62,946 nt of DNA, taken from NCBI GenBank assembly GCA_005878615.1, contig VBLT01000120.1, forward strand, positions 1 through 62,946, in the 5' to 3' direction. The notes under the pieces were generated by a model. The model did no database searches. It was given only the letters and a program-made list of their open reading frames with translations, and was not told the DNA's origin. Shown here one piece after another: positions 762-62,215 of the stretch; the stretch's first letter is position 1, and the number at the start of each line of letters is the position of its first letter. This DNA comes from Methanobacteriota archaeon. Lineage in GTDB: Archaea; Thermoplasmatota; Thermoplasmata; RBG-16-68-12. Position numbers and translations under genes: made by a program.

Positions 762-977
762 AACTGCGGACACGGTCGATCGAAGGGCGGCGGGGCGATC
801 CCCCGCCGCTCGCAACCTAACGGCGGGAGACAGGTTCGCGGAGAGGCGAAACCCGTTATCGGTTCTGATAGCTTCGGCGAAGCATAGTTATGGCATAGCC
901 GTCTCCCACGCTCGGCGTTTGAACTGGCCGCTTACCCCGTCTCTCCTGCCGCGCCGACCCGATCGCGTCCGATCGGG

Positions 978-1310
978 GTGACGATCCTCGCCGTCCTCAC
1001 GATCCTCGGGGGAGTCCTCCTCCTGCTCCTCGGCATCGTCGTGGTCGCCTTTTCGTCCTTGCTCGTCGGCGTCGGTCTCCCTCTCGGCTTCGGCCTGACC
1101 GGGAGCGTCCTGGGGGCGATCGTCCTCATCTTCGGGATCATCTGGATCGCGGTCGGCTCGGGTCTCCTGAACCTTCGACCATGGGCCTGGTGGCTGGCGA
1201 TCATCGTCATGGTCCTCTCGATCGTCGGGAGCATCGGCTCGCCGATTTCGGCGATTATCCCGGGTCTGATCCTGGTATACCTGATTCTTGTGCGGCACCA
1301 CTTCCGTTGA
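978..1310 (+). CDS. small multi-pass membrane protein
   Basis: 110-aa ORF that is almost entirely hydrophobic helices (ILGGVLLLLLGIVVVAF..., WAWWLAIIVMVLSIV...). Confidence 0.5.
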   Translation: MTILAVLTILGGVLLLLLGIVVVAFSSLLVGVGLPLGFGLTGSVLGAIVLIFGIIWIAVGSGLLNLRPWAWWLAIIVMVLSIVGSIGSPISAIIPGLILVYLILVRHHFR

Positions 1311-23829: not shown

Positions 23830-25815
23830 TCAGTGGGGGACTGCGCCGAGGCCGGGCTTGTCCGGGGTCATCTTGGGAACGAGCGCCGCGAGCTTGCTGA
23901 TCAGGCCCGACTTCTTCGGGCCTACGAGGGCTTGCTCCAAGACCTCGCTCAAGGTGTCGACGGGGACGATTTGGATCTTCCCTTGGTACTTGTCCTCCAG
24001 CAGGACGTCCTTCATGTTCGACCGCGGGATGACGACCTTCTCGATCCCGAGTTCGGCCGCGGCTTCGATCTTCGCGGTCACGCCGCCGACGGGCAGGACC
24101 TGTCCGCGCACGCTCAGGGAGCCGGTCATCGCGACCGCCTGGTTCACCGGGACTTCTTCGAGGGCGCTGATGACCGCGGTCGCGACGGAGATCGAGGCGC
24201 TGTCGCCTTCCGTGCCTTCGCGGGACCCGACGAACTGGACGTGGATGTCGTGGTTCGAGATGTCCTCGCCGGTGTACTTCTTGATGAGCGCGGCGACGTT
24301 CTCGACCGCCTCCTTCGCGATTTCACCGAGCCGGCCGGTGGCGATGATGCGCCCGCCTTGCTTCGCTTGCGCAGGGGTCACCTCGGCGGCAATGGGCAAG
24401 ACGATGCCACTGAATTCCGCGATCGAGTTGTCGCCGACGAGGACCGCGAGACCGTTGACCATGCCGACGATCGATCCTTCCGTGATGAAGGTCTGGTACT
24501 CCTTGCCCCGCTCGATCATGCGGTCCGCGACCTGCTGCTCGAGGGAGCGCGCGATGCGCTTCGCGTTCAGGACGTGCTTCGCCGTCACGAGGGGAGTCCC
24601 TTCCTCCTGGGCGATGTCCCCCGCGACGCGGATCAATCCGCCCAACTCGCGAAGGCGCAGGGTGAGTTGTCCACGGCGGCCGGCCCTTCGCTGGGCCTCC
24701 CGGAGGATTTCCAGGACCGCGGTGCGGTCGAAGTGCGGGATCTTCCGATCTTTCGAGACCTCCTGCGCGACGAACCGGACCAGCTTGAGGCGGTTGTCCT
24801 CCGTGTCCAGCATCGTGGCCTTCATGTAGATCTCGTATCCGTATCCGCGGATGCGGGACCGCAGCGCCGGGTGCATCCCTTGGACCGCGTCCAGGTTTCC
24901 CGCGGCGACGAGGATGAAGTCGCATGGGACCGCCTCCGTCTTGACCATCGCGCCGGACGACCGCTCGCTCTGGCCGACGATCGAGAATTTCTTCTCCTGC
25001 ATCGCGGTCAGCAGGCTCTGCTGGCTCTCCATGCGGAGGACGTTGATCTCGTCCACGAAGAGGACGCCCTTGTGGGCCTTGTGGATCGCGCCGGATTCGA
25101 CGCGCTCATGCGCGGGGGTCTCGAGGCCGCCGCTCTGGAAGGGATCGTGCTTGACGTCCCCGAGCAAGGCGCCGGCGTGACTCCCGGTCGCGTCGATGAA
25201 GGGCGGCATCTCATCGGCCGTGTGGCTGACGAGGAGCTTCGGGACCATCAGGTTCTCCTGACGGTGGCCCGTGTACCGCGTCGCGATGTAGATGATCGCC
25301 GCGACGAGGATCCCGAACAGGATGATATTCGGGGCATCCGTGCGGAAGCTCGGCTCCGGCGCGCCCCATTGGTAGGAGAGGATGACGCTCAGGCCGATGA
25401 TGAAGAACACGATCGTCATCACCATGGAGGCCTTCTGTTCCCGGCGTTGCATCGCCTCGGCCTTCTGGGCGTTCACGATCTCGCGGCCTTTGCCCGCGGG
25501 GACGACGCGGATCTTGGGTTCGTTCGGGTCCTCGGGATTGTGATACACGATGATGTCCTGGAGATCGTCCCGGGGCAGGAGTTCCGTCATCGCCCGGGCC
25601 AACATCGACTTCCCGGTGCCCGGGTCGCCGATCAACATGACATGCCGCTTCTGTTCGGCGGCTTTGCGGATGACTTCCACGGCCCGTTCCTGACCGATGA
25701 CTTGGTCCACGAGCCGCTCGGGGATTTTCACTTCCGCCGTGGACCGGAAGTCGACCTTGTTAATCCACGAATCCACAGGCGGGAGTTCTTCCGGTTCTCC
25801 CGCTGTCTCCACCAT
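23830..25815 (-). CDS. lonB: archaeal membrane-bound Lon protease (LonB)
   Basis: Walker A LIGDPGTGKSM, two TM helices inserted in the AAA+ domain, and C-terminal protease domain GDSASISVATAVISAL. Confidence 0.95.
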   Translation of the reverse strand: MVETAGEPEELPPVDSWINKVDFRSTAEVKIPERLVDQVIGQERAVEVIRKAAEQKRHVMLIGDPGTGKSMLARAMTELLPRDDLQDIIVYHNPEDPNEPKIRVVPAGKGREIVNAQKAEAMQRREQKASMVMTIVFFIIGLSVILSYQWGAPEPSFRTDAPNIILFGILVAAIIYIATRYTGHRQENLMVPKLLVSHTADEMPPFIDATGSHAGALLGDVKHDPFQSGGLETPAHERVESGAIHKAHKGVLFVDEINVLRMESQQSLLTAMQEKKFSIVGQSERSSGAMVKTEAVPCDFILVAAGNLDAVQGMHPALRSRIRGYGYEIYMKATMLDTEDNRLKLVRFVAQEVSKDRKIPHFDRTAVLEILREAQRRAGRRGQLTLRLRELGGLIRVAGDIAQEEGTPLVTAKHVLNAKRIARSLEQQVADRMIERGKEYQTFITEGSIVGMVNGLAVLVGDNSIAEFSGIVLPIAAEVTPAQAKQGGRIIATGRLGEIAKEAVENVAALIKKYTGEDISNHDIHVQFVGSREGTEGDSASISVATAVISALEEVPVNQAVAMTGSLSVRGQVLPVGGVTAKIEAAAELGIEKVVIPRSNMKDVLLEDKYQGKIQIVPVDTLSEVLEQALVGPKKSGLISKLAALVPKMTPDKPGLGAVPH

Positions 25816-26007: not shown

Positions 26008-26547
26008 CTACGCGGCGCGCGAGGCGATCATCTTGGCGAGCTTCGCGAACGCGTCCTCGACGTTCTGTCCGGTCTTCGCGGAGGTGAACACGTAGGGGGC
26101 GTGGTAGGATTCCGCGGTCCGGCGGATGTCCGCCTCCGTCAGGTCCATCTCGTCCTTCAAGTCCGCCTTGTTCGCGAGGAACTCGATCGGCACGTTGCCC
26201 GTGACCTTGACCACCGCCGCGACCCAGTCGGCCAAATCGTCGAGCGTCTGCCTCCTCGTCACGTCGCAGACGGCGAGGACTCCCTGGGCCCCGTGGAAAT
26301 AGGCCTCCTTGAGGAGTTCGCGGAATCCTTTCTCGCCCATGATGTCCCAGATGGTCATGTCGATATCGGACCCGCCGGTGGGGCCGTCGATTTTGATCTC
26401 CTTCTTCGAGACCTTCGCCCCGAGCGTCGAGATGTAGCGATCGTCGAACTGGTCCTGGATGAACCGTCGGATCAGGCACGTCTTGCCGACGGCGCCTTCC
26501 CCGACGAGGCAGATTTTCACCTTCATCTTCTGGCGGTCCATTTCCAT
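26008..26547 (-). CDS. Ras/Rab-like small GTPase, paralog 1
   Basis: G1 GEGAVGKT, switch I YISTLG, G3 WDIMGEKGF, G4 NKAD, G5 TSAKTG. 179 aa, with no C-terminal prenylation Cys. Confidence 0.85.
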   Translation of the reverse strand: MEMDRQKMKVKICLVGEGAVGKTCLIRRFIQDQFDDRYISTLGAKVSKKEIKIDGPTGGSDIDMTIWDIMGEKGFRELLKEAYFHGAQGVLAVCDVTRRQTLDDLADWVAAVVKVTGNVPIEFLANKADLKDEMDLTEADIRRTAESYHAPYVFTSAKTGQNVEDAFAKLAKMIASRAA

Positions 26548-26604
26548 CCTCTGGTTCGACGTATCGCGAGCACTATCCTCAGGTTATAAAGGCGTTGCCC
26601 AACG

Positions 26605-26622
26605 GTTATCTTCGGGGATAAC
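26605..26622 (-). promoter_or_regulatory. 18-nt palindrome GTTATC-N6-GATAAC, 14 nt upstream of a TTTATAA box (26584-26590) for GTPase 1
   Basis: The plus strand reads GTTATCTTCGGGGATAAC. It matches the site at 27896-27913 at 16 of 18 positions, with the same spacing to a TATA-like element. Confidence 0.5.
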
Positions 26623-26654
26623 ACGCGTGCGACGCGATCGAAAATTGTCGTGGT

Positions 26655-27212
26655 TCAGGCGTCGCCGTGATGACCGATCGCATCCGCGAGGGCTTGGAAC
26701 GCCTCGTTCACGCCATGCCCCGTCTTCGCGGACGCGAGGAAATGCGAGGCGCTGTGGATCGTGCCCATCCGCGCGAGTTCCTCCTCGCTGACGACGCGCC
26801 GTTCCAGGAGGTCCATCTTGTTCCCGAGGAACACGATCGGGACGTTCCCGACCTGCTTGCGGATCATCTGAACCCAGTTGTTGAGATCGTAGAACGTGTC
26901 CTTGCGCGTCAGATCGCAGACCGCGATGACGCCATGCGAGCCTTCGAAGTACGCGTCCCGGAGGAGGGCCCGGAAACCTTTCTCGCCCATGATGTCCCAC
27001 ACCATCATGTCGAGCATCGCGGGCGCACCCCGCCATTCCACTTCGACGGTCTTCTTCGTGACCTTCGTCCCGACCGTCGCGATGTACCGGTCATCGAATT
27101 CGTCCTGGACGAACCGCCGGATGAGGGAGGTCTTCCCGACCGCGACATCCCCGACCAAACACACCTTGGCCTTGACGTGCTTCAGGCCGGTCACCGCGGG
27201 CGTCGCCATCAT
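26655..27212 (-). CDS. Ras/Rab-like small GTPase, paralog 2
   Basis: Internal ATG 27212 of ORF 26655..27560. G1 GDVAVGKT, YIATVG, G3 WDIMGEKGF, NKMD, ASAKTG. Confidence 0.85.
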   Translation of the reverse strand: MMATPAVTGLKHVKAKVCLVGDVAVGKTSLIRRFVQDEFDDRYIATVGTKVTKKTVEVEWRGAPAMLDMMVWDIMGEKGFRALLRDAYFEGSHGVIAVCDLTRKDTFYDLNNWVQMIRKQVGNVPIVFLGNKMDLLERRVVSEEELARMGTIHSASHFLASAKTGHGVNEAFQALADAIGHHGDA

Positions 27213-27274
27213 GCGGCTCGAAACGGACTCCGTCTTATGTACCGTGAGGACGCGATTCTCGTCGATGATAATTC

Positions 27275-27838
27275 TTATTCTTCCGCGACGACTTTCCGCG
27301 CGTATCGCTCCTTCGCGACGCGCTCCGCCAGGGATTGGAAGGCGGTCTCGACGTTGACACCGGCCTTCGCCGATGTGAAATGGAACGGGCTGTCGTAGGC
27401 CCTTGCGGCCTGGACCATTTCGTCCTCCGTAATCTGGAGCTGGTCCTTCAGGTCGACCTTGTTCCCCAAGAATTCGATCGGGATCTTGCCGGTCACGCTG
27501 TAGACGCCCTCGATCCAGTCGTCCAGGTCGTCGAGCGTCTTGCGGCGCGTCACGTCGCACACCGCGAGAATGCCGCGAGCGCCGTAGAAGTAGGCCTCCT
27601 TGAGCAGCTCCCGGAATCCCTTCTGGCCCATGATGTCCCAGATCGTCATGTCGATCTTCAGCTCGCCCGTGCCGTCGGGACTGGGCGAGGCGAGTTCCTT
27701 CTTCGAGACCTTCGTGCCAAGGGTCTGAATGTACTTGTCATCGAAGTTGTCGAGCACGAATCGCCGGATGAGGGAGGTCTTGCCGACTGCGGCTTCGCCG
27801 ATGAGACAAACCTTCACCTTCATCCTCTTGACATCCAT
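27275..27838 (-). CDS. Ras/Rab-like small GTPase, paralog 3
   Basis: G1 GEAAVGKT, YIQTLG, G3 WDIMGQKGF, NKVD, TSAKAG. ATG 27838 (MDVKRMKVKV) is preferred over 27862, based on alignment with paralog 1 and the TATA position. Confidence 0.85.
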   Translation of the reverse strand: MDVKRMKVKVCLIGEAAVGKTSLIRRFVLDNFDDKYIQTLGTKVSKKELASPSPDGTGELKIDMTIWDIMGQKGFRELLKEAYFYGARGILAVCDVTRRKTLDDLDDWIEGVYSVTGKIPIEFLGNKVDLKDQLQITEDEMVQAARAYDSPFHFTSAKAGVNVETAFQSLAERVAKERYARKVVAEE

Positions 27839-27895
27839 AAATTCCCGCCTGGCACTGGGCATACCCGGCGAGACCCGCTTAAACGTTATGGGAGC

Positions 27896-27913
27896 GTTAT
27901 CCTCGGGGATAAT
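27896..27913 (-). promoter_or_regulatory. 18-nt palindrome GTTATC-N6-GATAAT, 12 nt upstream of a TTTAAG TATA-like box for the GTPase 3-2 unit
   Basis: The plus strand reads GTTATCCTCGGGGATAAT. This is the second copy of the motif found at 26605-26622. Confidence 0.5.
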
Positions 27914-28016: not shown

Positions 28017-28181
28017 ATGTGCGACGAATATTATGACGAACGGATGAAAGCGGTCTGGCGGGCGCTCGCCGACGAATCCGAACTCGAACGCGACGAAGAA
28101 AGTGAAGAGGAGTCTCCACGGCCGATCGCGATCGAGCCGCTCGATCTCCCGAAGGCGAAACCGAAAGCCCTTCTCCGTTGA
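28017..28181 (+). CDS. possible small acidic protein (54 aa)
   Basis: MCDEYYDERMKAVWRALADESELERDEESEEESPRPIAIEPLDLPKAKPKALLR. GGTGG lies 5 nt upstream of the ATG. Divergent from GTPase 3. No homology recognised. Confidence 0.3.
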   Translation: MCDEYYDERMKAVWRALADESELERDEESEEESPRPIAIEPLDLPKAKPKALLR

Positions 28182-47342: not shown

Positions 47343-47418
47343 GGCCGGGATGGGCTAGCTTGGTTGATGCTAGGGGACTGTGGATCCCTTGACGCGAGTT
47401 CAAATCTCGCTCCCGGCC
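47343..47418 (+). tRNA. tRNA-His (anticodon GTG) with genomically encoded G-1
   Basis: Hand-folded. Acceptor GCCGGGA/TCCCGGC with an extra 5' G opposite discriminator C. D-loop has A14, G18-G19 and A21. Anticodon stem GGGGA/TCCCT, loop CTGTGGA. T-arm GCGAG-TTCAAAT-CTCGC. No encoded CCA. Confidence 0.9.
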
Positions 47419-47564: not shown

Positions 47565-50500
47565 ATGATCAAGCAGGCGGAGAAGACGTACGCTCCCCTA
47601 GAGGTGGAGCGCCAGGTCCAGGAATTTTGGAACCGCGCGAAGGTCTACGCGAAGACCGTCGCGGCGCGTTCGAAGGGGGAAGACTTCTACTTCGGCGACG
47701 GCCCGCCCTATACGACCGGGTCAATCCACCTGGGCAATGTCCTGAACAAGTCCCTGAAAGACGCCGTCATCCGCTTTCGCCGGATGCGTGGCTTCCACGT
47801 CCGAGACCAGCCCGGGTACGACATGCATGGCCTCCCGATCGAGGTCCAGGTCGAGAAGACCCTGGGGATCACGAACAAGAAGGAGATCGAGGACTTGGGG
47901 ATCGAGAAATTCGTCTCGACCTGTCGCAAGTTCGCCCTCGATTTGCTGAACAAGATGACGGACCAGTTCCGGGCCCTCGGGATCTGGATGGACTGGGACC
48001 GGCCGTACATGACGATCCGGAACGAATTCATCGAGGCGGCGTGGTGGACCCTCGGCCGCGCGCACGAACGCGGTCTGCTCTACGAGGCCCTCCGCTCGAC
48101 CCAGTGGTGCTCCCGCGACGAAACCGCCCTGGCCGACGCGGAGATCGAGTACTCGGATGAGACGGATCCCTCCATCTACGTCAAGTTCCCGCTCCGGGAC
48201 CGACCCGCCGAATCGCTCCTGATCTGGACGACGACTCCCTGGACCCTCCCAGCGAATCTGGCAATCGCGGTCCACCCGCAGTTCGTCTACTCGAAGGTGA
48301 AGGTGGTCCGCGGAGAGTCCGTGGAATTTCTGTGGACGATGGAGGCGACGGTTCCCGCCGTCATGGCCCGCGGCGGGGTGACCGCCTACGAGGTCACCGA
48401 GACGACGACCGGCGACAAGCTGGTCGGCCTGGCCTATGCGCACCCCCTCGCGGACAAGGTCCCCTATCAGGCGACCGCGACGGGGGAATGGGTCCATCGC
48501 GTGGTCTCCTCGACCACCGTCGAGGCGGAGCACACGGGCCTCGTCCACAGCGCACCGGGTCACGGTCCGGAAGATTTCGAACTCGGGCAGACCCTCGGGT
48601 TGCCGGTCTTCAGTCCGGTCGACGGACGGGGCCATTTCACGAAGGAGGCGGGCGTGTACGCCGACAAGCCGGTCAAAGAGGCGGACGCGGTGATCATCGA
48701 GGACCTCCGCGCCGCGAACGCTCTCTTCGCCGCGGAGACGCTGGTCCATGCCTACGGTCACTGCTGGCGCTGCAAGACGCCGATCCTCTACCGCGCGACG
48801 GTCCAGTGGTTCCTGCGGGTCACGCCGATCAAAGCGAAAATGGTCGACGAGGTTCGCCGGGTCGCGTGGTATCCAGAATGGGCGGGCGCGGCCCGTCAGA
48901 TGGACTGGACCCAGAACCTGCGGGATTGGTGCCTCTCCCGCCAGCGGTACTGGGGCATCCCGCTCCCGATCTGGCGGTGCACGAAGTGCGGCCACTGGAT
49001 CGTCGTGGGCTCCTCGGACGCGTTGCGGAAGGCGCAGGGATACGCGGACGGCATGGACCTCCACCGGCCGGGGATCGACCAGGTCGTCCTGCCGTGTCCG
49101 AAGTGCCGCGAGGAGATGCGGCGGGTCCCCGACATCCTCGACGTGTGGTGGGACAGCGGAGTGGCCAGTTGGGCGAGCCTCGGATATCCCGCGCGGGACG
49201 ACGAGTTCCGCCGGTGGTGGCCGGAGGACTGGATCGTCGAAGGTCCCGACCAGACCCGGGGTTGGTTCAACTCGCAGCTCGCCGCCGGCGTGGTCGCCTT
49301 CGACCGAGCGCCGTACGACAGCGTCCTCATGCACGGGTGGGTGAACGGGCCCGACGGCCGGCAGATGCACAAATCCCTCGGCAACATCATCGAGCCGGAG
49401 ACGGTCGTCCGCAAGTTCGGCGTCGACGCGCTCCGCTTCTACATGCTCTCCGTCAACGCACCGTGGGACGACATCACCTTTCAGGAAGACGGGGTTCGCA
49501 ACGCCAACCGCACCCTGAACATCCTGTGGAACGTCCTGCGCTTTGCGACGACCTACATGGTCCTCGATCGATTCGATCCGACGGCGCCGGACTTCGCCTC
49601 GATCTCTGGCCATCTGCGACCCGAGGATCGGTGGCTCCTCTCCCGGCTCGAAGGCCTCAAGGCGACCGTGAATGCGGAGTTTGCGACGTACAATCTGCAT
49701 CGGGCCTTTCGGGCGGTCGAGTCCTTCATCCTCGATGACCTCTCGCGCTGGTATGTGAAACTCGTCCGGGGCCGGACCTGGACGGAAGCCGAGGATCGCG
49801 ACAAGCTCGCGGCGTACCATGTGTTGTTCGAGGCGTTGCGCACCGTCGCGGTCCTGCTCGCGCCGGTCACGCCGTTCGTCGCCGAAGCGATCTATCAGCG
49901 ACTGGATGGGAAGAAGCTCAGCGTGCACATGCTCGATTGGCCCTCCGCCCAGGAGGAGCGACTCCAGCCGGACCTCGAGCGGTCCATGTCGATCGTCCAG
50001 GAACTCGTCGAGATCGTCTCGAAGGAGCGGCAGAAGGGAGGGCGCAAGCTCCGGTGGCCGTTGAAGCTGATCGCGGTCCAGGCGCCGACGCCGGAGGCGG
50101 CCAAGGCCCTCGAGACGTTGCGGGGCATCTTCCTCGAACAGGCGAACGCGAAAGCGCTTGCGGTCCTCAAAGCGAACGAGGAATTCCCTGGGATGGCCCT
50201 CGTGGTGAAGCCGGACGGAGCGGCGATCGGGAAGGCCTATCGGGTCCTCCAGCCGAAGATCGTGAAGCTCCTCGAGGGTCGCCCGCCCGAGGAAATCAAG
50301 AAGGCGCTCGACAAGGGCCGACTCGAAGTCGGCGTCGAAGGCCAGGTCGTCGCGATCGACCCGTCGATGGTCCGATTTGAGAAGGCGATGCCTTCCGAGG
50401 TCGTCCGGGTGCCCACGCCGTACGGCGAGCTCTACCTCGACCTGCGCGTGACGCCGGAGCTCCGTGCCGAGGCCTACGCGCGCGAGTTGATCCGCCGGAT

Positions 50501-51719
50501 CCAACAGATGCGGAAAGAGATCGATCTGGACGTAGATGACTTCCTGATCACGGTCATCAAGACGAACAAGGAATTGGCGGCGTTGATCGGGGGACAGAGG
50601 GATTTCATTGGTCGGGAGACCCGCTCGCGTCGGATCACGTTCACGGACGGAGCGGTCGAGGCCGAGTACGTCGTGGAATGGAACGACGTCGACGGACATT
50701 CGGTGACGATCGGCGTCACACCGCTCCACATGTCCGAGGCCCTCCGCGACTTCACGAAGATCCCGGGCATCACGGTCGCGAAGGCGATGGGCCTGTTCGA
50801 TGCGGGCTACAAGAGCCTCGCGGCGTTGCGCGCGGCGACGAAACAAGAGCTCGCGCAGATCGAGGGCCTCCAAGTCGCGGATGCGGTTCGGATCTTGGAC
50901 GCGCTCGCGGCGAAGAGGGACACATCGATCCCATGCCCCACGTGCGGGGCGGCCATCGCCCCATCGACCCGCCGATGCGCGCGGTGCGGCGAACCCGTCG
51001 CAACGAAGGGGACCCCTTGCCCCAGGTGTCGCGCGGAGATCCCTCCGGGCGCGGACAACTGCCCGGTCTGCGGCTTCGTCTTGTCCACGTCGGCGACGGC
51101 CCCGCCGTCGCGCGTCGCATGCATCGCCTGCGGCGAGCTCATTCCCGCGGGCTCGACCGAGTGCCCGTCCTGTGGCGCTCCCCAAACCCGGGCCCCCGCG
51201 TCGAATCGTGCGGCCTCGGAGGACGACGCTCCGCCCCTCTTGAAAGATTCCTCCTCCTATCTCGTCGAGGAATCGGTCCCGGACGGGGCCTATCGGCTCT
51301 TCGAGATCGCCCAGAGGGCGGGGAAAGGCGGGATGGTCATCACGCGGACGTTCCCGCAGAAAGTCCGGGAGCGACTGAGCGGTCCCCCCTTCCCGATCCT
51401 GTGGCTCAGCAATGTCGGGAAGGAAGACACCGTCCGACCGAAAGACCTGGAGAAACTGTCCCTCGCCGTCGAGCAGTTCCTCGCTCGGGAGAAGGGCGTC
51501 ATCCTCCTCGACGCGATTGAATACCTGGTGACGAACAACAATTTCATCACGGTCCTGCGGCTCGTGCAATCGATCCGCGACCAGGTCGCGATCAACAGTG
51601 GGGTGTTCCTCCTCTCCGTGAACCCGTCGGCCCTCGATCCGCACCAGCTGACCTTGCTCGAGAAGGAGGTCGACCGGGTCATCCCCGGGTCGTCCGGCGC
51701 GCGGACCGCGTCGGGCTAG
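47565..51719 (+). CDS. ileS: isoleucyl-tRNA synthetase fused in frame to a C-terminal HhH + 3x zinc-ribbon + DUF835-like module (1384 aa)
   Basis: Class I motifs PPYTTGSIHLGN (HIGH-type) and KMHKSLGN (KMSKS-type). CP1 editing region. The ORF runs uninterrupted past the usual end at ~aa 1054. Confidence 0.9.
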   Translation: MIKQAEKTYAPLEVERQVQEFWNRAKVYAKTVAARSKGEDFYFGDGPPYTTGSIHLGNVLNKSLKDAVIRFRRMRGFHVRDQPGYDMHGLPIEVQVEKTLGITNKKEIEDLGIEKFVSTCRKFALDLLNKMTDQFRALGIWMDWDRPYMTIRNEFIEAAWWTLGRAHERGLLYEALRSTQWCSRDETALADAEIEYSDETDPSIYVKFPLRDRPAESLLIWTTTPWTLPANLAIAVHPQFVYSKVKVVRGESVEFLWTMEATVPAVMARGGVTAYEVTETTTGDKLVGLAYAHPLADKVPYQATATGEWVHRVVSSTTVEAEHTGLVHSAPGHGPEDFELGQTLGLPVFSPVDGRGHFTKEAGVYADKPVKEADAVIIEDLRAANALFAAETLVHAYGHCWRCKTPILYRATVQWFLRVTPIKAKMVDEVRRVAWYPEWAGAARQMDWTQNLRDWCLSRQRYWGIPLPIWRCTKCGHWIVVGSSDALRKAQGYADGMDLHRPGIDQVVLPCPKCREEMRRVPDILDVWWDSGVASWASLGYPARDDEFRRWWPEDWIVEGPDQTRGWFNSQLAAGVVAFDRAPYDSVLMHGWVNGPDGRQMHKSLGNIIEPETVVRKFGVDALRFYMLSVNAPWDDITFQEDGVRNANRTLNILWNVLRFATTYMVLDRFDPTAPDFASISGHLRPEDRWLLSRLEGLKATVNAEFATYNLHRAFRAVESFILDDLSRWYVKLVRGRTWTEAEDRDKLAAYHVLFEALRTVAVLLAPVTPFVAEAIYQRLDGKKLSVHMLDWPSAQEERLQPDLERSMSIVQELVEIVSKERQKGGRKLRWPLKLIAVQAPTPEAAKALETLRGIFLEQANAKALAVLKANEEFPGMALVVKPDGAAIGKAYRVLQPKIVKLLEGRPPEEIKKALDKGRLEVGVEGQVVAIDPSMVRFEKAMPSEVVRVPTPYGELYLDLRVTPELRAEAYARELIRRIQQMRKEIDLDVDDFLITVIKTNKELAALIGGQRDFIGRETRSRRITFTDGAVEAEYVVEWNDVDGHSVTIGVTPLHMSEALRDFTKIPGITVAKAMGLFDAGYKSLAALRAATKQELAQIEGLQVADAVRILDALAAKRDTSIPCPTCGAAIAPSTRRCARCGEPVATKGTPCPRCRAEIPPGADNCPVCGFVLSTSATAPPSRVACIACGELIPAGSTECPSCGAPQTRAPASNRAASEDDAPPLLKDSSSYLVEESVPDGAYRLFEIAQRAGKGGMVITRTFPQKVRERLSGPPFPILWLSNVGKEDTVRPKDLEKLSLAVEQFLAREKGVILLDAIEYLVTNNNFITVLRLVQSIRDQVAINSGVFLLSVNPSALDPHQLTLLEKEVDRVIPGSSGARTASG

Positions 51720-59190: not shown

Positions 59191-60580
59191 CGGATTCGTC
59201 CTCGTCGAACGCGGGGAGCGAGCCCTCCTTCGACTCGGTGGCGCGAGACCCGGCGACGAGGGCCGCCTTCTCGAGGAGGTGCTTCACCGCGTGGCTCGAC
59301 TCGGGCTCTTCCATCAGGAGGGCGACCTCGGCGTCCTCGAGGCCGAGGGTGGCCGTGAGATTCACCCGCAGCTCCTCGTCGCCCTGAAACAGCATCCGGA
59401 TCGTCGGGAGGAGCTCGTCGAGGACGAGGGTCCGCGACACGTGCAGGTGGCGAGCGAGTTTCGTGGCGAGGGACGTCCGCGCCCCGCGCTGCGCCCGGGA
59501 GCGCGCCATCTGGATCAGGTAGTACGGGAACTCGAGCTGGCCGCCTCGACCGCGTCCCTTCCGCGCGGACGCGACCCCGCTCGACATCAGCTCCTTCGCG
59601 TAGGACCAGAGGCCGAAACTCTGTCGCCGACGGGCCCGCCCCAGGAAAACGTCTGCGCGGCTCAGCGCATCATACCCGCGGGCCAAGTCGTCGGGACGGC
59701 CGAACTCGTGGCCCAGGTTCTGATCGACCCATAAGATGAGGTCTTCCGGGGATTCGTCGAGTCCCGTCGCCGCGTCTTTCGCGCGCCGCGCATCTCCGGA
59801 CCGGAGGATCTCCTCGATCGCGGGGAAAATCGTGCGCTCTCGGTCGCGGTATCCGAGGGCCTTCGTGCCGGTGCCTCGAACGGTGTCTTTACCGATCGCG
59901 AGCGACTCGAGGTCGTTGATTGCGGACCGCAGATCTCCGGAGGACCGCTCGACAATCACATCGAGGACCTCCGAGGCCGCCTCGACGCCCTCCTCAGTGG
60001 CAATGGTCCGAAGTATGTTTTTCATGGCGTCATCGTGAATAGGTTGAAATTTGATGGTCTTGCTTAATCGCTTCAGGGAGGACGATCGTCGGGTGAGCCC
60101 GTAGTAGTCGTTCGCGATCAGGACGATCGGCTGCCCGCTGGTCTGGATCGTCTCGACAATCGCGCCGATCCCTCCGCGGTCCTCCCGGCCGAACACGTTG
60201 TCGGCCTCGTCGAGGACGATCAGCTTGCGGCCTCCTTGGTCCGCTCGGAGGAATTCGCCGGAATCGCTGAAGGTCTGCAGGACGGCCCCGCGCGTCGCGA
60301 CCTTCCGAATCGCCTCCGCGTTCCGGCTGTCCGAGGCGTTCATTTCGACGACGCTCCAGCCCATCTCCTTCGCGAGGGCGAGCGCGGCGCTGGTCTTCCC
60401 GATGCCGGGAAGGCCCTGCAAGATGACCGCTTTCTTGTCCGGTCGACCGCGCTGCCATGCGGCCGCCCACTTGCGGAGCTCGGCGACCGCGGTCGGATTC
60501 GCGACGATGTCGTCGAGGTCCTTCGGTCGGTGTCGCTCCGCCCAGTTCATGCCCGCTCCGAGAATCGGACGCGCGGTCAT
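59180..60580 (-). CDS. rfcL: replication factor C large subunit
   Basis: WAERHRPKDLDDIV, Walker A GLPGIGKTS, Walker B LIVLDEADN. ATG 60550 is the alternative start. Confidence 0.9.
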   Translation of the reverse strand: MTARPILGAGMNWAERHRPKDLDDIVANPTAVAELRKWAAAWQRGRPDKKAVILQGLPGIGKTSAALALAKEMGWSVVEMNASDSRNAEAIRKVATRGAVLQTFSDSGEFLRADQGGRKLIVLDEADNVFGREDRGGIGAIVETIQTSGQPIVLIANDYYGLTRRSSSLKRLSKTIKFQPIHDDAMKNILRTIATEEGVEAASEVLDVIVERSSGDLRSAINDLESLAIGKDTVRGTGTKALGYRDRERTIFPAIEEILRSGDARRAKDAATGLDESPEDLILWVDQNLGHEFGRPDDLARGYDALSRADVFLGRARRRQSFGLWSYAKELMSSGVASARKGRGRGGQLEFPYYLIQMARSRAQRGARTSLATKLARHLHVSRTLVLDELLPTIRMLFQGDEELRVNLTATLGLEDAEVALLMEEPESSHAVKHLLEKAALVAGSRATESKEGSLPAFDEDESDAA

Positions 60581-60675
60581 AACCCTATCACCTACGTGGC
60601 GAAATCTTGCGATTTAGCACAAACATATGATTTGTATAGCTGTTACAAAACCGAATAGGAATTTATATGTTACAG

Positions 60676-61326
60676 CTAAACAGGCTTTTGATTGCCGATT
60701 TCTGTGCTTTGCACCGACTTCTCGACCGAATCGCAAAGCTCAGACAGGAATTGGTCGTAAGTTTTTCGAAACTTCAGCCGGTACAATCGATTCCGAGTCA
60801 CGGTCGACAACTGGATCGTCGTCAGGTCCCGGGTTTTCTGCGTGGGAGAGGTCTGCGCACTGATTGTCGGCATGGGCTTCACCGGACTAGGTTTTGTCAA
60901 ACCGGGCATTGCCCCCGTTTCCGTATACACTCGGTAGACCGAAGGTCTACGGATGCTTCCATCCAAGGCTGGGTCAATCCCTGGAGGATGAAGAATACAG
61001 CGCGGACTGCCGGGCTCAATTATCGCGTTGCAAGCCCTGCAGAGCAGCCGAAATCCTGATTCACCGCGGAGAATCTTGAAACTCAAGTCTGCGGAGTGAG
61101 TTTTGCGCGTCAGTCGACGCCCACCCCCGTTAATGTGGTCGAACTCCAGTCGGTTCGGCCCGTACACGTCGGTCCACCCGCAACAGGCACAACGGGGGGC
61201 GCCTTGAGACAACAGTATCATGGCTCTGATCCGCCGACGTCGTCTCGATTGCCGCTGCAGCGCACGATATGCATCTGGATGAGCCTTGCGCCAACGTTTC
61301 ACGGCTTCGGTCGACTTATATGGCAT
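60676..61326 (-). CDS. HNH-endonuclease-like protein with C-terminal RHH-like segment
   Basis: CACCGW...EFDHINGGG...LLCRACN is an HNH-type motif. The C-terminal part is IQLSTVTRNRLYRLKFRKTYDQFLSEL. Confidence 0.6.
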   Translation of the reverse strand: MPYKSTEAVKRWRKAHPDAYRALQRQSRRRRRIRAMILLSQGAPRCACCGWTDVYGPNRLEFDHINGGGRRLTRKTHSADLSFKILRGESGFRLLCRACNAIIEPGSPRCILHPPGIDPALDGSIRRPSVYRVYTETGAMPGLTKPSPVKPMPTISAQTSPTQKTRDLTTIQLSTVTRNRLYRLKFRKTYDQFLSELCDSVEKSVQSTEIGNQKPV

Positions 61327-61486
61327 CGGACATTGGTTGGAGGACCGGAGCTCTATTTACATATCTCCGGGCTAGGCGAAGGTAATGCGCCCAGTTCATG
61401 GCGAACCAAGACGGAGCAGCGAACGGGTCGCGTTTATTGCGAACCTTTGGGCGTTTGTAGTTGCCATTCAACAACGGCTGGAACGG

Positions 61487-62215
61487 CTAGTCGACGTAGT
61501 CCTCGAGTCGAAGGTGCGGTGTTTCCGTTTTTCTTTGATCGGGTCGTCGGATTCTCCGTTGCATTTCATTTTGGACTCGGTTAAACGTGTCAATCTCGAT
61601 GAGCGGATCGTGCTTCCCTCGCTTGATTCCGCCGTTCAACCGCGAGAGTCCACAGTAGACCGGGTTGCTGAGGATATTCGCAATAGTCTGACTCGCCCAG
61701 GCTCGTCCAGTCTTCGTCCGGTACCCATCCCGATTTAGTTCTTGGCAAATTTTCGCGATACCTCGGCCTTCAAGATAGCGACGGAAAATCAAAGAAACCA
61801 CGCGGGCTTCTTCTTGCTTTACTTGGAGGATCCCGTTTACGTAGTCGTAGCCATACGGACTTGCATATGTGAGGAATGCATTTGCCTTCTTCACTGCATT
61901 GTTCAAAGCATCCGCGTTTTGTTGGCCACGAGCCCTTCGGATGACTTCACGTTCATTCAGGTCGCGCTCGATGCAGAGTTTGCGCAAGGCATCTTCTTCC
62001 GTTTCCGAATTGTAGTGCTGCAAGAGTTCTCGCGTAGAGCCAAATCGCATATAGATTTCCCAGAACAGTAAAGCGTCCGTTGGAGCACTGTCGACACAAT
62101 GCTTACAGAGGATGACCTTCTCTTTCCGAATTGTAGGATCCGCGCGCGGATTAGCTTCGACTTCATGGTTCACAAGGTTCTTTGAAACCCAGCAACGCCC
62201 GCACCGCCCCTCCAC
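61487..62215 (-). CDS. recombinase-domain protein lacking a resolvase catalytic domain (N-terminal CxxC...CxxC zinc ribbon)
   Basis: PYGYDYVNGILQVKQEEARVVSLIFRRYLEGRGIAKICQELNRDGYRTKTGRAWASQTIANILSNPVYCG is paralogous to the recombinase domain of the upstream gene. GTG start 2 nt after the upstream stop. Confidence 0.6.
   Translation of the reverse strand: MEGRCGRCWVSKNLVNHEVEANPRADPTIRKEKVILCKHCVDSAPTDALLFWEIYMRFGSTRELLQHYNSETEEDALRKLCIERDLNEREVIRRARGQQNADALNNAVKKANAFLTYASPYGYDYVNGILQVKQEEARVVSLIFRRYLEGRGIAKICQELNRDGYRTKTGRAWASQTIANILSNPVYCGLSRLNGGIKRGKHDPLIEIDTFNRVQNEMQRRIRRPDQRKTETPHLRLEDYVD

What the first reader, a model, noticed from the sequence alone, without database searches (positions are those of the whole stretch)
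26008..27862. Three tandem Ras/Rab-like small GTPase paralogs; the catalytic Gln is replaced by Glu in two of them
Three co-oriented 179-187-aa genes encode clearly paralogous Ras-superfamily GTPases with complete G1 (GxxxVGKT), G4 (NKxD) and G5 (SAK) motifs. Their G3 region is an unusual WDIMG(E/E/Q)KGF. The residue after DxxG is the water-activating Gln61 in Ras and in most Rab/Arf proteins. It is Gln only in paralog 3 and Glu in paralogs 1 and 2. That suggests a division of labour, for example one hydrolysis-competent member and two slow or partner-dependent ones. No Roadblock/LC7 (MglB-like) or longin-type partner ORF is visible in the flanks, although such partners usually accompany prokaryotic small GTPases. 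None of the three has a lipidation Cys tail. The cluster sits between lonB and the main r-protein operon.
Basis: partly seen in the sequence, partly recalled or inferred. Interest (0 to 1): 0.7.

Follow-up and report, generated by a model that had tools for sequence, protein, structure and literature searches.

The report
Conserved Q/E/E trio of archaeal Rab-like GTPases
Three neighbouring genes for Rab-like molecular-switch proteins, one with the usual catalytic glutamine and two with glutamate, are real, and dozens of Thermoplasmata archaea keep them in the same order; this makes them an uncharacterised natural variant of a well-known protein type.

Summary
Three tandem minus-strand genes encode 45-64% identical Ras-superfamily GTPases with intact G1-G5 motifs and switch II WDIMG(Q/E/E)KGF. 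Rabs are their closest relatives by sequence and by predicted fold.

The pattern is not strain-specific. In all 46 three-gene loci from different Thermoplasmata species the order is Q-E-E, although CAG and GAG differ by one base. The Ras-12 position of the P-loop is also copy-specific (Ala / Val or Phe / Gly).

New findings:
- Each gene has its own BRE/TATA promoter preceded by the palindrome TATC-N6-GATAA. It occurs upstream of 174 of 187 cluster genes and 0 of 19 other paralogs.
- lonB follows the cluster in 55 of 57 loci.
- A membrane-protein plus two-domain Roadblock module lies directly upstream of the trio in one sublineage. In another, KaiC and DUF835 genes do, and GTPase-DUF835 fusions exist.

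Ras Q61E has raised intrinsic GTPase activity, so Glu is probably a working catalytic residue.

No described family matches (MglA, Rup1-3, RasL, ArfR). Verdict: a new variant of a known kind, of moderate interest, with function still inferred.

The parts
27275..27862 (-). G1: Rab-like GTPase with P-loop GEAAVGKT and switch II WDIMGQKGF (canonical Gln). The ORF starts at 27862; the conserved start is probably M9 at 27838 (187 aa).
   Evidence: Gene calls of 187 or 195 aa in near-identical contigs. Q in 46/46 three-gene loci. Orthogroup bootstrap 93%.
26655..27212 (-). G2: the most divergent paralog, with P-loop GDVAVGKT (Val at Ras position 12) and switch II WDIMGEKGF (Glu). Its start at 27212 is probably leaderless.
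   Evidence: E in 46/46 loci. Position 12 is Val 32, Phe 9, Ile 2, Thr 2, Ser 1. Mean ortholog identity 0.66, against 0.80 for G1 and 0.74 for G3.
26008..26547 (-). G3: paralog closest to G1 (64% identity), with P-loop GEGAVGKT and switch II WDIMGEKGF (Glu). The probable start is the second ATG at 26541 (177 aa), preceded by GAGGA.
   Evidence: most orthologs are 177 aa. E in 46/46 and Gly12 in 46/46 loci. AlphaFold model pLDDT 79.8; Foldseek top hits are Rab8, Rab1 and Rab27 at TM about 0.8.
27897..27912 (.). Palindromic element TTATCCCCGAGGATAA upstream of G1, just upstream of the BRE/TATA. Candidate binding site for a dimeric transcription factor.
   Evidence: Conserved position and half-sites across loci.
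27256..27271 (.). Palindromic element upstream of G2, inside the 62-nt G1-G2 spacer. It reads TTATCATCGACGAGAA in the window and TTATCAGGGGCGATAC in most relatives.
26606..26621 (.). Palindromic element TTATCCCCGAAGATAA upstream of G3.
   Evidence: repeat D4.
27878..27883 (-). TATA-like box (AACGTTTAAG) of the G1 promoter, 13 nt downstream of the palindrome.
   Evidence: Read from the sequence. Consensus across 53 loci: gTATCG....TGATAAC-N8-AACgTTTA.
27234..27240 (-). TATA-like box (TACATAAG) of the G2 promoter, about 25 nt upstream of the ATG at 27212.
26584..26590 (-). TATA box (CCTTTATAAC) of the G3 promoter.
   Evidence: TTTATAA conserved in 53 loci.
23830..25815 (-). lonB (661 aa, membrane AAA+ Lon protease), the conserved co-directional downstream neighbour. 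It has its own TATA-like box, and T-runs separate it from G3.
   Evidence: It is the next gene in 55 of 57 loci with enough sequence, with LonB identity down to 71-72%.

Best explanation
The locus encodes three separately transcribed, co-regulated Rab/Ras-like molecular switches. They belong to a large uncharacterised archaeal small-GTPase family recognisable by switch II WD[IV][ML]GxKGF.

Shown:
- An ancient tandem triplication produced three orthogroups.
- Each orthogroup keeps its own pair of residues at the two positions that flank the gamma-phosphate (Ras numbering): G1 Ala12/Gln61, G2 Val or Phe12/Glu61, G3 Gly12/Glu61.
- These pairs are held by purifying selection.
- Each gene has its own BRE/TATA promoter preceded by the same TATC-N6-GATAA palindrome.

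Inferred:
- All three bind guanine nucleotide, because G1-G5 are intact.
- The Glu acts as a working water-activating or general-base residue, as in Ras Q61E. The copies would then differ in switch-off kinetics and regulator dependence, not in being 'live' versus 'dead'. G2, with a bulky residue at position 12, is the likeliest slow or long-lived GTP-state member.
- One dimeric transcription factor co-regulates the trio.
- The switches signal through partners encoded elsewhere. The best candidates are a two-domain Roadblock/LC7 protein paired with a small membrane protein, and DUF835/KaiC-type signalling proteins.
- The near-invariant position immediately upstream of lonB hints at a membrane or proteostasis-related output. 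That link rests on association only.
For: Family and fold:
- Pfam Ras E 1e-35 to 1e-39.
- Best solved relatives are Rab6, Rab8, Ypt6 and Thor-Rab.
- The AlphaFold model matches Rab8 and Rab1 at TM about 0.8.

Conservation:
- Q-E-E in 46/46 three-gene loci, with synonymous codon variation (CAG/CAA, GAG/GAA).
- Orthogroup bootstraps of 93, 87 and 91%.
- Paralog-specific residues at position 12.
- In the wider family, among the top 150 representatives scanned for the motif (175 domain stretches), Q appears in 100 stretches and E in 21. Together with the Q-type outgroups in the tree, this points to E being derived.

Glu chemistry: Ras Q61E has increased intrinsic GTPase activity (PMC2987813, PMC10515638).

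Promoters:
- The palindrome lies upstream of 174 of 187 cluster genes and 0 of 19 other paralogs.
- The background rate is 0.011 per 110 nt.
- The window has 4 matches against 0.15 expected.
- The spacing to BRE/TATA is fixed.

Partners:
- A Roadblock module lies directly upstream of G1 in L028 and L087.
- KaiC and a 7TM-2xDUF835 gene lie divergently upstream in L045-47, L050 and L052.
- GTPase-DUF835 fusions exist: P0131 and P0147.

lonB is the next gene in 55 of 57 loci.
Against: - There is no biochemical or expression data for any member.
- The Ras Q61E result may not transfer to a DIMG-type switch II.
- The model has low confidence in switch I and shows no nucleotide.
- lonB and the Roadblock module lack the palindrome.
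- Roadblock adjacency is limited to one sublineage, and KaiC/DUF835 adjacency to another.
- Two loci (L034, L069) lack lonB downstream.
- The lonB and r-protein synteny could simply be inherited gene order.
- The transcription factor is unidentified.
Confidence: 0.5

Rival explanations
1. One reading: G1 (Gln) is the only hydrolysis-competent switch. The Glu copies are slow, locked-on or strictly partner-dependent regulators, close to pseudo-GTPases.
For: G2 has Val, Phe or Ile at the Ras-12 position. In Ras this impairs intrinsic and GAP-stimulated hydrolysis (established knowledge). G2 also evolves fastest. Rup1 GTPases that lack the Gln have been proposed to receive it in trans (PMC4316618).
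Against: Ras Q61E hydrolyses GTP faster than wild type. From memory, Glu and Pro are the non-transforming substitutions at Ras codon 61 (Der et al. 1986). G3 pairs Glu with the canonical Gly12, and all G motifs are intact in both E copies. Glu is fixed, not merely tolerated (46/46 loci).
Confidence: 0.2
2. The three proteins form a heteromeric, dimerisation-activated GTPase of the GAD type. Hydrolysis would be triggered when paralogs pair through their G domains, with the Glu acting as catalytic residue as in MnmE or Irga6.
For: Copy number and order are strictly conserved. The genes share a cis element, implying joint expression. Deeper lineages keep four copies rather than collapsing to one. 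One relative, P0121, fuses a G1-like domain to a degenerate second G domain. Catalytic Glu in dimerising GTPases is recalled from the literature and was not checked here.
Against: No fusions of two active domains of this family were found; the multi-domain hits were eukaryote-type Rab concatenations. No dimerisation motif was identified. Complex prediction could not be run. Separate promoters allow unequal expression.
Confidence: 0.15
3. The trio is a dedicated regulator or adaptor set for the LonB protease, or a shared stress module with it. Nucleotide state would gate LonB activity or substrate delivery at the membrane.
For: lonB is the next co-directional gene in 55 of 57 loci across LonB identities of 71-99%. 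This includes four-copy loci where the r-protein linkage is lost.
Against: lonB has its own TATA-like box and lacks the palindrome. T-runs follow G3. NMN adenylyltransferase is just as conserved in the neighbourhood. L034 and L069 keep the trio without lonB. No precedent was found in the literature searched.
Confidence: 0.12
4. The copies are functionally redundant, and the Q/E and position-12 differences are neutral.
For: High overall similarity (45-64% identity) and identical G1, G4 and G5 motifs.
Against: Q/E/E is invariant in 46 species-level loci although the codons differ by one base, with synonymous changes present. The orthogroups predate species divergence. Position 12 is fixed within each orthogroup.
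Confidence: 0.03

Closest known systems
Eukaryotic Rab GTPases (Rab1, Rab8, Rab6/Ypt6)
   Same: Best sequence matches in the PDB (E 1e-28 to 1e-21). Best structural matches (TM about 0.8, 28-33% identity). A Rab5-like P-loop GExAVGK[ST]. Partial matches to the RabF4 and RabF5 regions (AYFYGA, AVCDVT).
   Different: No C-terminal prenylation Cys. Switch II reads DIMG(Q/E)KGF instead of DTAGQERF. Two of the three carry Glu at the catalytic Gln. RabF1-F3 are poorly matched. The host is an archaeon with no known GDI, REP or TBC-GAP system.
Asgard Rab-like/RasL GTPases (e.g. Thorarchaeota Rab, PDB 7EZB; PMC10933270)
   Same: Archaeal, single-domain and Rab-like, with no lipid anchor. 7EZB hits G1 at E 5e-25. 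Roadblock proteins are the suspected regulators.
   Different: Thor-Rab keeps the catalytic Gln and has a switch I Arg at the MglA position. Here that position is Q, A or S. The present family is from Thermoplasmata, not Asgard, and is organised as a conserved Q/E/E tandem.
MglA-MglB (bacterial and archaeal Ras-like GTPase with a Roadblock GAP)
   Same: A prokaryotic small GTPase for which a Roadblock/LC7 protein is the natural candidate regulator. A Roadblock gene is adjacent in L028 and L087.
   Different: No intrinsic Arg finger before the switch I Thr. Sequence and fold are closest to Rabs; MglA is not among the top PDB matches. There is no Roadblock gene in the window. The Roadblock protein here has two domains and is paired with a small membrane protein.
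H-Ras Q61E (engineered mutant)
   Same: Glu at the position of the water-activating Gln in a Ras-fold GTPase. Increased intrinsic GTPase activity is reported.
   Different: It is an artificial single substitution in a DTAGQ context. Here Glu is the natural, fixed state in a DIMGEKGF context, combined with Gly or Val/Phe at position 12. It has not been tested biochemically.
Rup1 (bacterial Ras-like GTPases lacking the G3 Gln; PMC4316618)
   Same: Prokaryotic Ras-like GTPases with eukaryote-like G motifs and a non-Gln residue at the catalytic position.
   Different: Rup1 is bacterial and sits in four-component signalling operons, with a proposed in-trans Gln. Here the gene neighbourhood is different, one paralog keeps Gln, and the replacement is specifically Glu.

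Membership tests
Ras superfamily of small GTPases | G1 GxxxxGK[ST], G2 Thr, G3 DxxG, G4 NKxD and G5 SAK in a single G domain of about 180 aa. | tested here: met
   All five motifs are invariant in the three proteins and in 46 ortholog sets. Pfam Ras scores 121-134 bits against a 21.6-bit cut-off. TIGR00231 is above its cut-off.
Ras superfamily of small GTPases | Catalytic Gln immediately after DxxG. | tested here: not met
   Present in G1 only. G2 and G3 have Glu. This feature varies in several accepted subfamilies, so it does not exclude superfamily membership.
Rab family | Closest sequence and structural similarity is to Rabs rather than to Arf, Ras, Rho or Ran. | tested here: met
   The top 60 PDB sequence hits are Rab/Ypt, apart from one Thorarchaeota Rab entry. 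The top 50 Foldseek hits are all Rabs. Pfam Arf gives only 37-53 bits.
Rab family | C-terminal Cys prenylation motif (CC, CXC or CAAX). | tested here: not met
   The C-termini are ...KVVAEE...GHHGDA and ...ASRAA, with no Cys.
Rab family | RabF1-RabF5 signature motifs (IGVDF, KLQIW, RFRSIT, YYRGA, LVYDIT; motifs recalled from memory). | tested here: inconclusive
   By eye: LGTKV, MTIW, GFRELL, YFYGA, AVCDVT. That is about 2-3 of 5-6 residues per motif. No Rabifier-type scoring was available.
MglA family | Intrinsic arginine finger immediately before the switch I Thr. | tested here: not met
   The residue before the Thr is Q (G1), A (G2) and S (G3), conserved within each orthogroup. The feature is as described in PMC10933270.
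MglA family | Adjacent mglB (Roadblock/LC7) gene. | tested here: inconclusive
   Absent from the window's flanks and from most loci. A two-domain Roadblock gene (PF03259, E 4e-9) is directly upstream in L028 and L087.
Rag/Gtr family | C-terminal roadblock domain that mediates heterodimerisation. | tested here: not met
   The proteins are 177-195 aa and consist of the G domain only. The Gtr1_RagA hit covers only the N-terminal part of the G domain, up to residue 158 at most, at 22-27 bits.
Arf/Sar family | N-terminal amphipathic helix and a WDxGGQ/H switch II. | tested here: not met
   The N-termini are short and charged, and switch II is WDIMG(Q/E). The Arf HMM scores far below Ras.
Rup1 | Bacterial, lacks the G3 Gln, and is encoded with a conserved membrane-associated signalling gene set. 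| not tested
   Known only from the description in PMC4316618. No Rup1 sequences were compared. The neighbourhood here (r-proteins, lonB, NMNAT) differs.

The most novel reading that the evidence does not exclude
The paralog-specific residue pairs at Ras positions 12 and 61 are (A,Q), (V/F,E) and (G,E) in the trio. Elsewhere in these genomes they are (H,S), (K,E), (R,E) and (Q,D/N). Together they may form a natural dial that sets different GTP-hydrolysis clocks. On this reading the co-regulated trio works as a physically interacting relay, or as a dimerisation-activated complex using a carboxylate catalytic residue. It would be docked on a membrane Roadblock platform and would control LonB or DUF835/KaiC-type signalling. 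That would be a Rab-cascade-like system in a non-Asgard archaeon.
Probability: 0.12. Interest if true: 0.75.

Novelty: new variant of a known kind. Interest (0 to 1): 0.45.

Why it matters
Small Ras-like GTPases outside eukaryotes and Asgard archaea are barely studied, and the catalytic Gln is treated as a hallmark of the superfamily.

Here evolution has fixed Glu at that position in two of three sister proteins, across dozens of species. It has also fixed different residues at the other oncogenic hot-spot position, Ras-12. This is a ready-made comparative system for asking how the two gamma-phosphate-flanking residues set intrinsic and stimulated hydrolysis rates.

The shared promoter palindrome and the Roadblock, DUF835/KaiC and lonB associations give concrete handles for finding what such switches control in an ordinary, non-Asgard archaeon. 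That bears on how much 'eukaryote-like' GTPase signalling predates eukaryotes.

Tried and rejected
- **Neighbours of other paralog loci.** Pfam scans of genes next to the DIMGSKGF singleton and the E-E pair found transporters, a peptidase A24, a giant TPR/DUF11 protein and OMP decarboxylase. No known GAP or GEF appeared.
- **Promoter/terminator scan.** The bacterial-type scan found nothing above shuffles, as expected for an archaeon.
- **Rfam.** No RNA family in the region; only one tRNA in the whole window.
- **Multi-GTPase fusions.** These looked at first like Rosetta-stone evidence for a complex. They are eukaryote-type Rab concatenations (WDTAGQERF) and were discarded.
- **P0131 middle region.** I guessed it was a Roadblock domain, but Pfam did not confirm this. 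It is, however, similar to the second domain of the L028 Roadblock protein.
- **Roadblock module and the regulon.** The module does not carry the TATC-N6-GATA element, so it is not in the same predicted regulon.
- **TrmB-type TGM motif.** I considered it as the identity of the palindrome. I rejected it because the spacing differs: N9 between TATC and GATA from memory, against N6 here.
- **Literature.** Searches for DUF835 plus GTPase, and for Thermoplasmatota plus small GTPases, returned nothing relevant.
- **Hetero-complex prediction.** It could not be run, because the structure tool takes single chains from the window only.
Full report
**1.

The minus strand carries three co-oriented ORFs:
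- G1 at 27275..27862
- G2 at 26655..27212
- G3 at 26008..26547

All three hit Pfam Ras (PF00071) at E 5e-35 to 5e-39, far above Arf, and TIGR00231 above its cut-off. They are 45-64% identical to one another. GxxxVGKT, the switch I Thr, WDIMG, NKxD and SAK are invariant. The triplication is still visible in the DNA: three copies with a 641-650 nt period at 65-75% identity.

The residue after DxxG is Gln in G1 and Glu in G2 and G3. In the HMMER alignments the G1 Gln pairs with the catalytic Gln of Rab6 and Rab8. None of the proteins ends in Cys.

Promoter geometry and ortholog lengths suggest slightly shorter proteins than the maximal ORFs. G1 probably starts at M9 (27838, 187 aa). G3 probably starts at the second ATG (26541, 177 aa), which follows a GAGGA.

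**2. What kind of protein**

- The best solved relatives by sequence are Rab6, Rab8, Ypt6 and the Thorarchaeota Rab 7EZB (E 1e-28 to 5e-25).
- An AlphaFold2 model of G3 has pLDDT 79.8 and pTM 0.79, with switch I at low confidence. It has the canonical small-GTPase topology.
- Its 50 best PDB matches are all Rabs (Rab8a, Rab1, Rab27, Rab5), at TM about 0.8 and 28-33% identity.
- The proteins lack the Rab prenylation tail and match the RabF motifs only partly. They lack the MglA-type switch I arginine, having Q, A and S at that position. They lack a Rag-type C-terminal domain.

They are therefore Rab-like members of the Ras superfamily, not members of any defined subfamily.

**3. The pattern is ancient and under selection**

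A scan of one genome per GTDB species returned 78 loci, all from Thermoplasmata-type MAGs from soil, sediment and groundwater.

| Feature | G1 | G2 | G3 | Source |
|---|---|---|---|---|
| Residue at Ras-61 (46 three-gene loci) | Gln 46/46 (CAG 44, CAA 2) | Glu 46/46 (GAG 41, GAA 5) | Glu 46/46 (GAG 42, GAA 4) | |
| Residue at Ras-12 | Ala 46/46 | Val 32, Phe 9, Ile 2, Thr 2, Ser 1 | Gly 46/46 | |
| Orthogroup bootstrap | 93% | 87% | 91% | |
| Mean ortholog identity | 0.80 | 0.66 | 0.74 | |

- The Gln and Glu codons are one base apart and synonymous variants occur. The amino-acid identities are therefore maintained by selection.
- The tree is neighbour-joining with 100 bootstraps. Q-type sequences of the wider family lie outside the three orthogroups, so the triplication predates the species and Glu is derived.
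- Deeper lineages carry four tandem copies. The first is always Gln (10/10), the second always Glu, and the third and fourth vary among E, D, N, G and A.

The same genomes hold further paralogs elsewhere:
- a singleton with DIMGSKGF and His at position 12;
- an E-E pair whose second member has Lys at position 12;
- in four-copy loci, a second gene with Arg at position 12.

The two positions that flank the gamma-phosphate are thus the main axis along which these paralogs differ.

**4. The wider family**

- A profile search of 1.84 billion representatives found 783 clusters at E <= 1e-30.
- Among the top 150 representatives (175 domain stretches scanned), the switch II motif is typically WD[IV][ML]GQ. 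Gln occurs in 100 stretches, Glu in 21, and S, D, N or H in a few each.
- Some members are fused to DUF835 (P0131, P0147) or to TPR repeats (P0140, P0162).
- The five multi-GTPase polypeptides inspected (P0122, P0123, P0128, P0129, P0135) are eukaryote-type Rab concatenations. They say nothing about this family.

**5. Gene neighbourhood**

- lonB is the next co-directional gene in 55 of 57 loci with enough sequence (median gap 156 nt). NMN adenylyltransferase follows it. This holds even where LonB identity falls to 71-72% and in the four-copy loci.
- The divergent L3 operon is upstream in 39 of 49 loci. It is missing upstream in all eight four-copy loci that could be assessed.
- No Roadblock or longin gene lies within about 10 kb of the trio in near-identical or related contigs.

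Three further links emerged.

(i) Roadblock module.
- In L028 and L087 a two-gene module sits directly upstream of G1 and co-directional with it.
- It consists of a small membrane protein overlapping a 272-287-aa two-domain Roadblock/LC7 protein (PF03259, E 4e-9).
- This Roadblock family is conserved in Thermoplasmata. P0326, for example, is named as a Methanobacteriota archaeon MAG protein and occurs on 106 contigs.
- It is usually encoded elsewhere, with the same overlapping small partner gene.
- The large protein downstream of the E-E pair carries a homologous C-terminal region.

(ii) KaiC/DUF835 genes.
- In L045-47, L050 and L052 a KaiC-type ATPase (PF06745, E 4e-43) lies divergently upstream of G1.
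- A 7TM protein with two DUF835 domains lies beside it.

(iii) GTPase-DUF835 fusions, noted above.

**6.

- Each of the three genes is preceded by a palindrome, TATC-N6-GATAA(C). In the window the sites are 27897-27912, 27256-27271 and 26606-26621.
- With at most one mismatch, the window holds 4 matches against 0.15 expected. No shuffle reached 4.
- Across loci, the core TATC-N6-GATA with at most one mismatch lies upstream of 174 of 187 cluster genes. It lies upstream of none of the 19 genes in the other paralog loci. The background rate is 0.011 per 110 nt over 767 kb.
- The exact motif occurs at only five other places in that 767 kb.
- Alignments anchored on the motif show a fixed architecture: palindrome, then 7-8 nt, then AAC..TTTAWA (BRE/TATA), then the start.
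- From established archaeal promoter geometry (my knowledge), each gene therefore has its own promoter, and the palindrome lies where upstream activator sites usually lie. That one dimeric factor co-regulates the trio is an inference. The factor is unknown.
- lonB and the Roadblock module lack the element.

**7. How it most likely works**

Intact G1-G5 motifs imply that all three bind guanine nucleotide.

Two papers report that Ras Q61E has increased intrinsic GTPase activity (PMC2987813, PMC10515638). From memory, Glu is also one of the two non-transforming substitutions at Ras codon 61. The more economical reading is that Glu is a working catalytic residue. The copies would then differ in hydrolysis clock and regulator dependence.

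G2 adds a bulky residue at position 12 and evolves fastest, so it is the best candidate for a long-lived GTP state. I put about 0.5 on this 'differentiated, co-regulated switches' model. The rivals are:
- a dimerisation-activated hetero-complex (0.15);
- a dedicated LonB regulator (0.12);
- neutral redundancy (0.03), which the conservation data contradict.

**8. Comparison with what is known**

- The literature searched lists these prokaryotic groups: MglA1-5, Rup1-3, RasL, Rag, ArfL and ArfR. Neither source mentions Thermoplasma or a Thermoplasmata family (PMC4316618, bioRxiv 10.1101/2024.02.28.582541).
- An earlier survey noted single, divergent 'Rab-like' proteins in a Thermoplasmatales archaeon and in Aciduliprofundum, without further analysis (PMC4915359).
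- Databases annotate these genes only as 'GTP-binding protein' or 'Rab family GTPase'.
- I found no description of the WDIMGxKGF family, the Q/E/E triplet, its promoter element or its lonB linkage. Only open-access text could be searched.

**9. Verdict**

The finding is real, is conserved far beyond the strain, and is not explained by any characterised family. In kind, however, it is a set of Rab-like small GTPases with a variant catalytic residue. Its function remains inferred from association. I rate it a new variant of a known kind, with interest about 0.45.

Noticed in passing
window 47565-51719 (+): A continuous 1384-aa ORF fuses isoleucyl-tRNA synthetase to a C-terminal helix-hairpin-helix, zinc ribbons and a DUF835 domain (PF05763, E 3e-31). 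Many hits to the C-terminal part also carry IleRS C-terminal domains (PF19302, PF08264) or are named isoleucyl-tRNA synthetase. The fusion therefore looks conserved in Thermoplasmata. DUF835 is also fused to relatives of the GTPases.
   Followed up: partly
window 856-871 and 978-1310 (+): A fourth copy of the palindrome (TTATCGGTTCTGATAG) lies about 12 nt upstream of a TATA-like ATAGTTAT. It precedes a 110-aa multi-pass membrane protein with a borderline DUF7144 hit (26.3 bits against a 27-bit cut-off). This gene may belong to the same regulon.
   Followed up: partly
window 28017-28181 (+): A 54-aa, very acidic small ORF (MCDEYYDERMKAVW...) lies between G1 and the L3 gene. It is conserved at 40-94% identity in about 25 related loci and is called as a gene in related contigs. 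It has no Pfam match.
   Followed up: partly
L083-L088 and L028:4273-5896: A conserved two-gene module: a small membrane protein (126-142 aa) overlaps by 14 nt the start of a two-domain Roadblock/LC7 protein of about 275 aa. It is found in varied genomic contexts in Thermoplasmata, and next to the GTPase trio only in one sublineage.
   Followed up: partly
L050:2012-5720 (also L045, L047, L052; L046 lacks the terpene-synthase-like gene): In the four-copy lineage the trio's upstream neighbours are a KaiC-type ATPase, a 7TM protein with two DUF835 domains, and a terpene-synthase-like gene. Two overlapping exact TATC-N6-GATAA palindromes lie upstream of the terpene-synthase-like gene in L050 and L052.
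   Followed up: partly
P0121 (762 aa): A relative carries a G1-like GTPase domain (WDITGQKGF), followed by a long linker, a second degenerate G domain without a P-loop, and a large C-terminal region with no Pfam match.
   Followed up: no
L064, L067, L070 (E-E pair loci): The second paralog pair is followed by a 425-467-aa protein with no Pfam match. After that comes an 878-956-aa protein that starts with a hydrophobic N-terminal stretch and has a weak PKD hit. Its C-terminal region is homologous to the two-domain Roadblock protein.
   Followed up: partly
window G1 C19/C102 and the equivalent residues in G2 and G3: Two Cys residues (in KVCLVG and AVCDVT) are invariant in all three paralogs and in the G3 orthologs aligned. 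From the general Ras fold I would place them in strands beta1 and beta4, which are neighbours. Whether they pair or bind anything was not examined.
   Followed up: no
window 47344-47418 (+) and 60001-62000: A tRNA gene lies about 150 nt upstream of the IleRS fusion gene. GC content drops from about 0.65 to 0.56 in the last 2 kb profiled.
   Followed up: no
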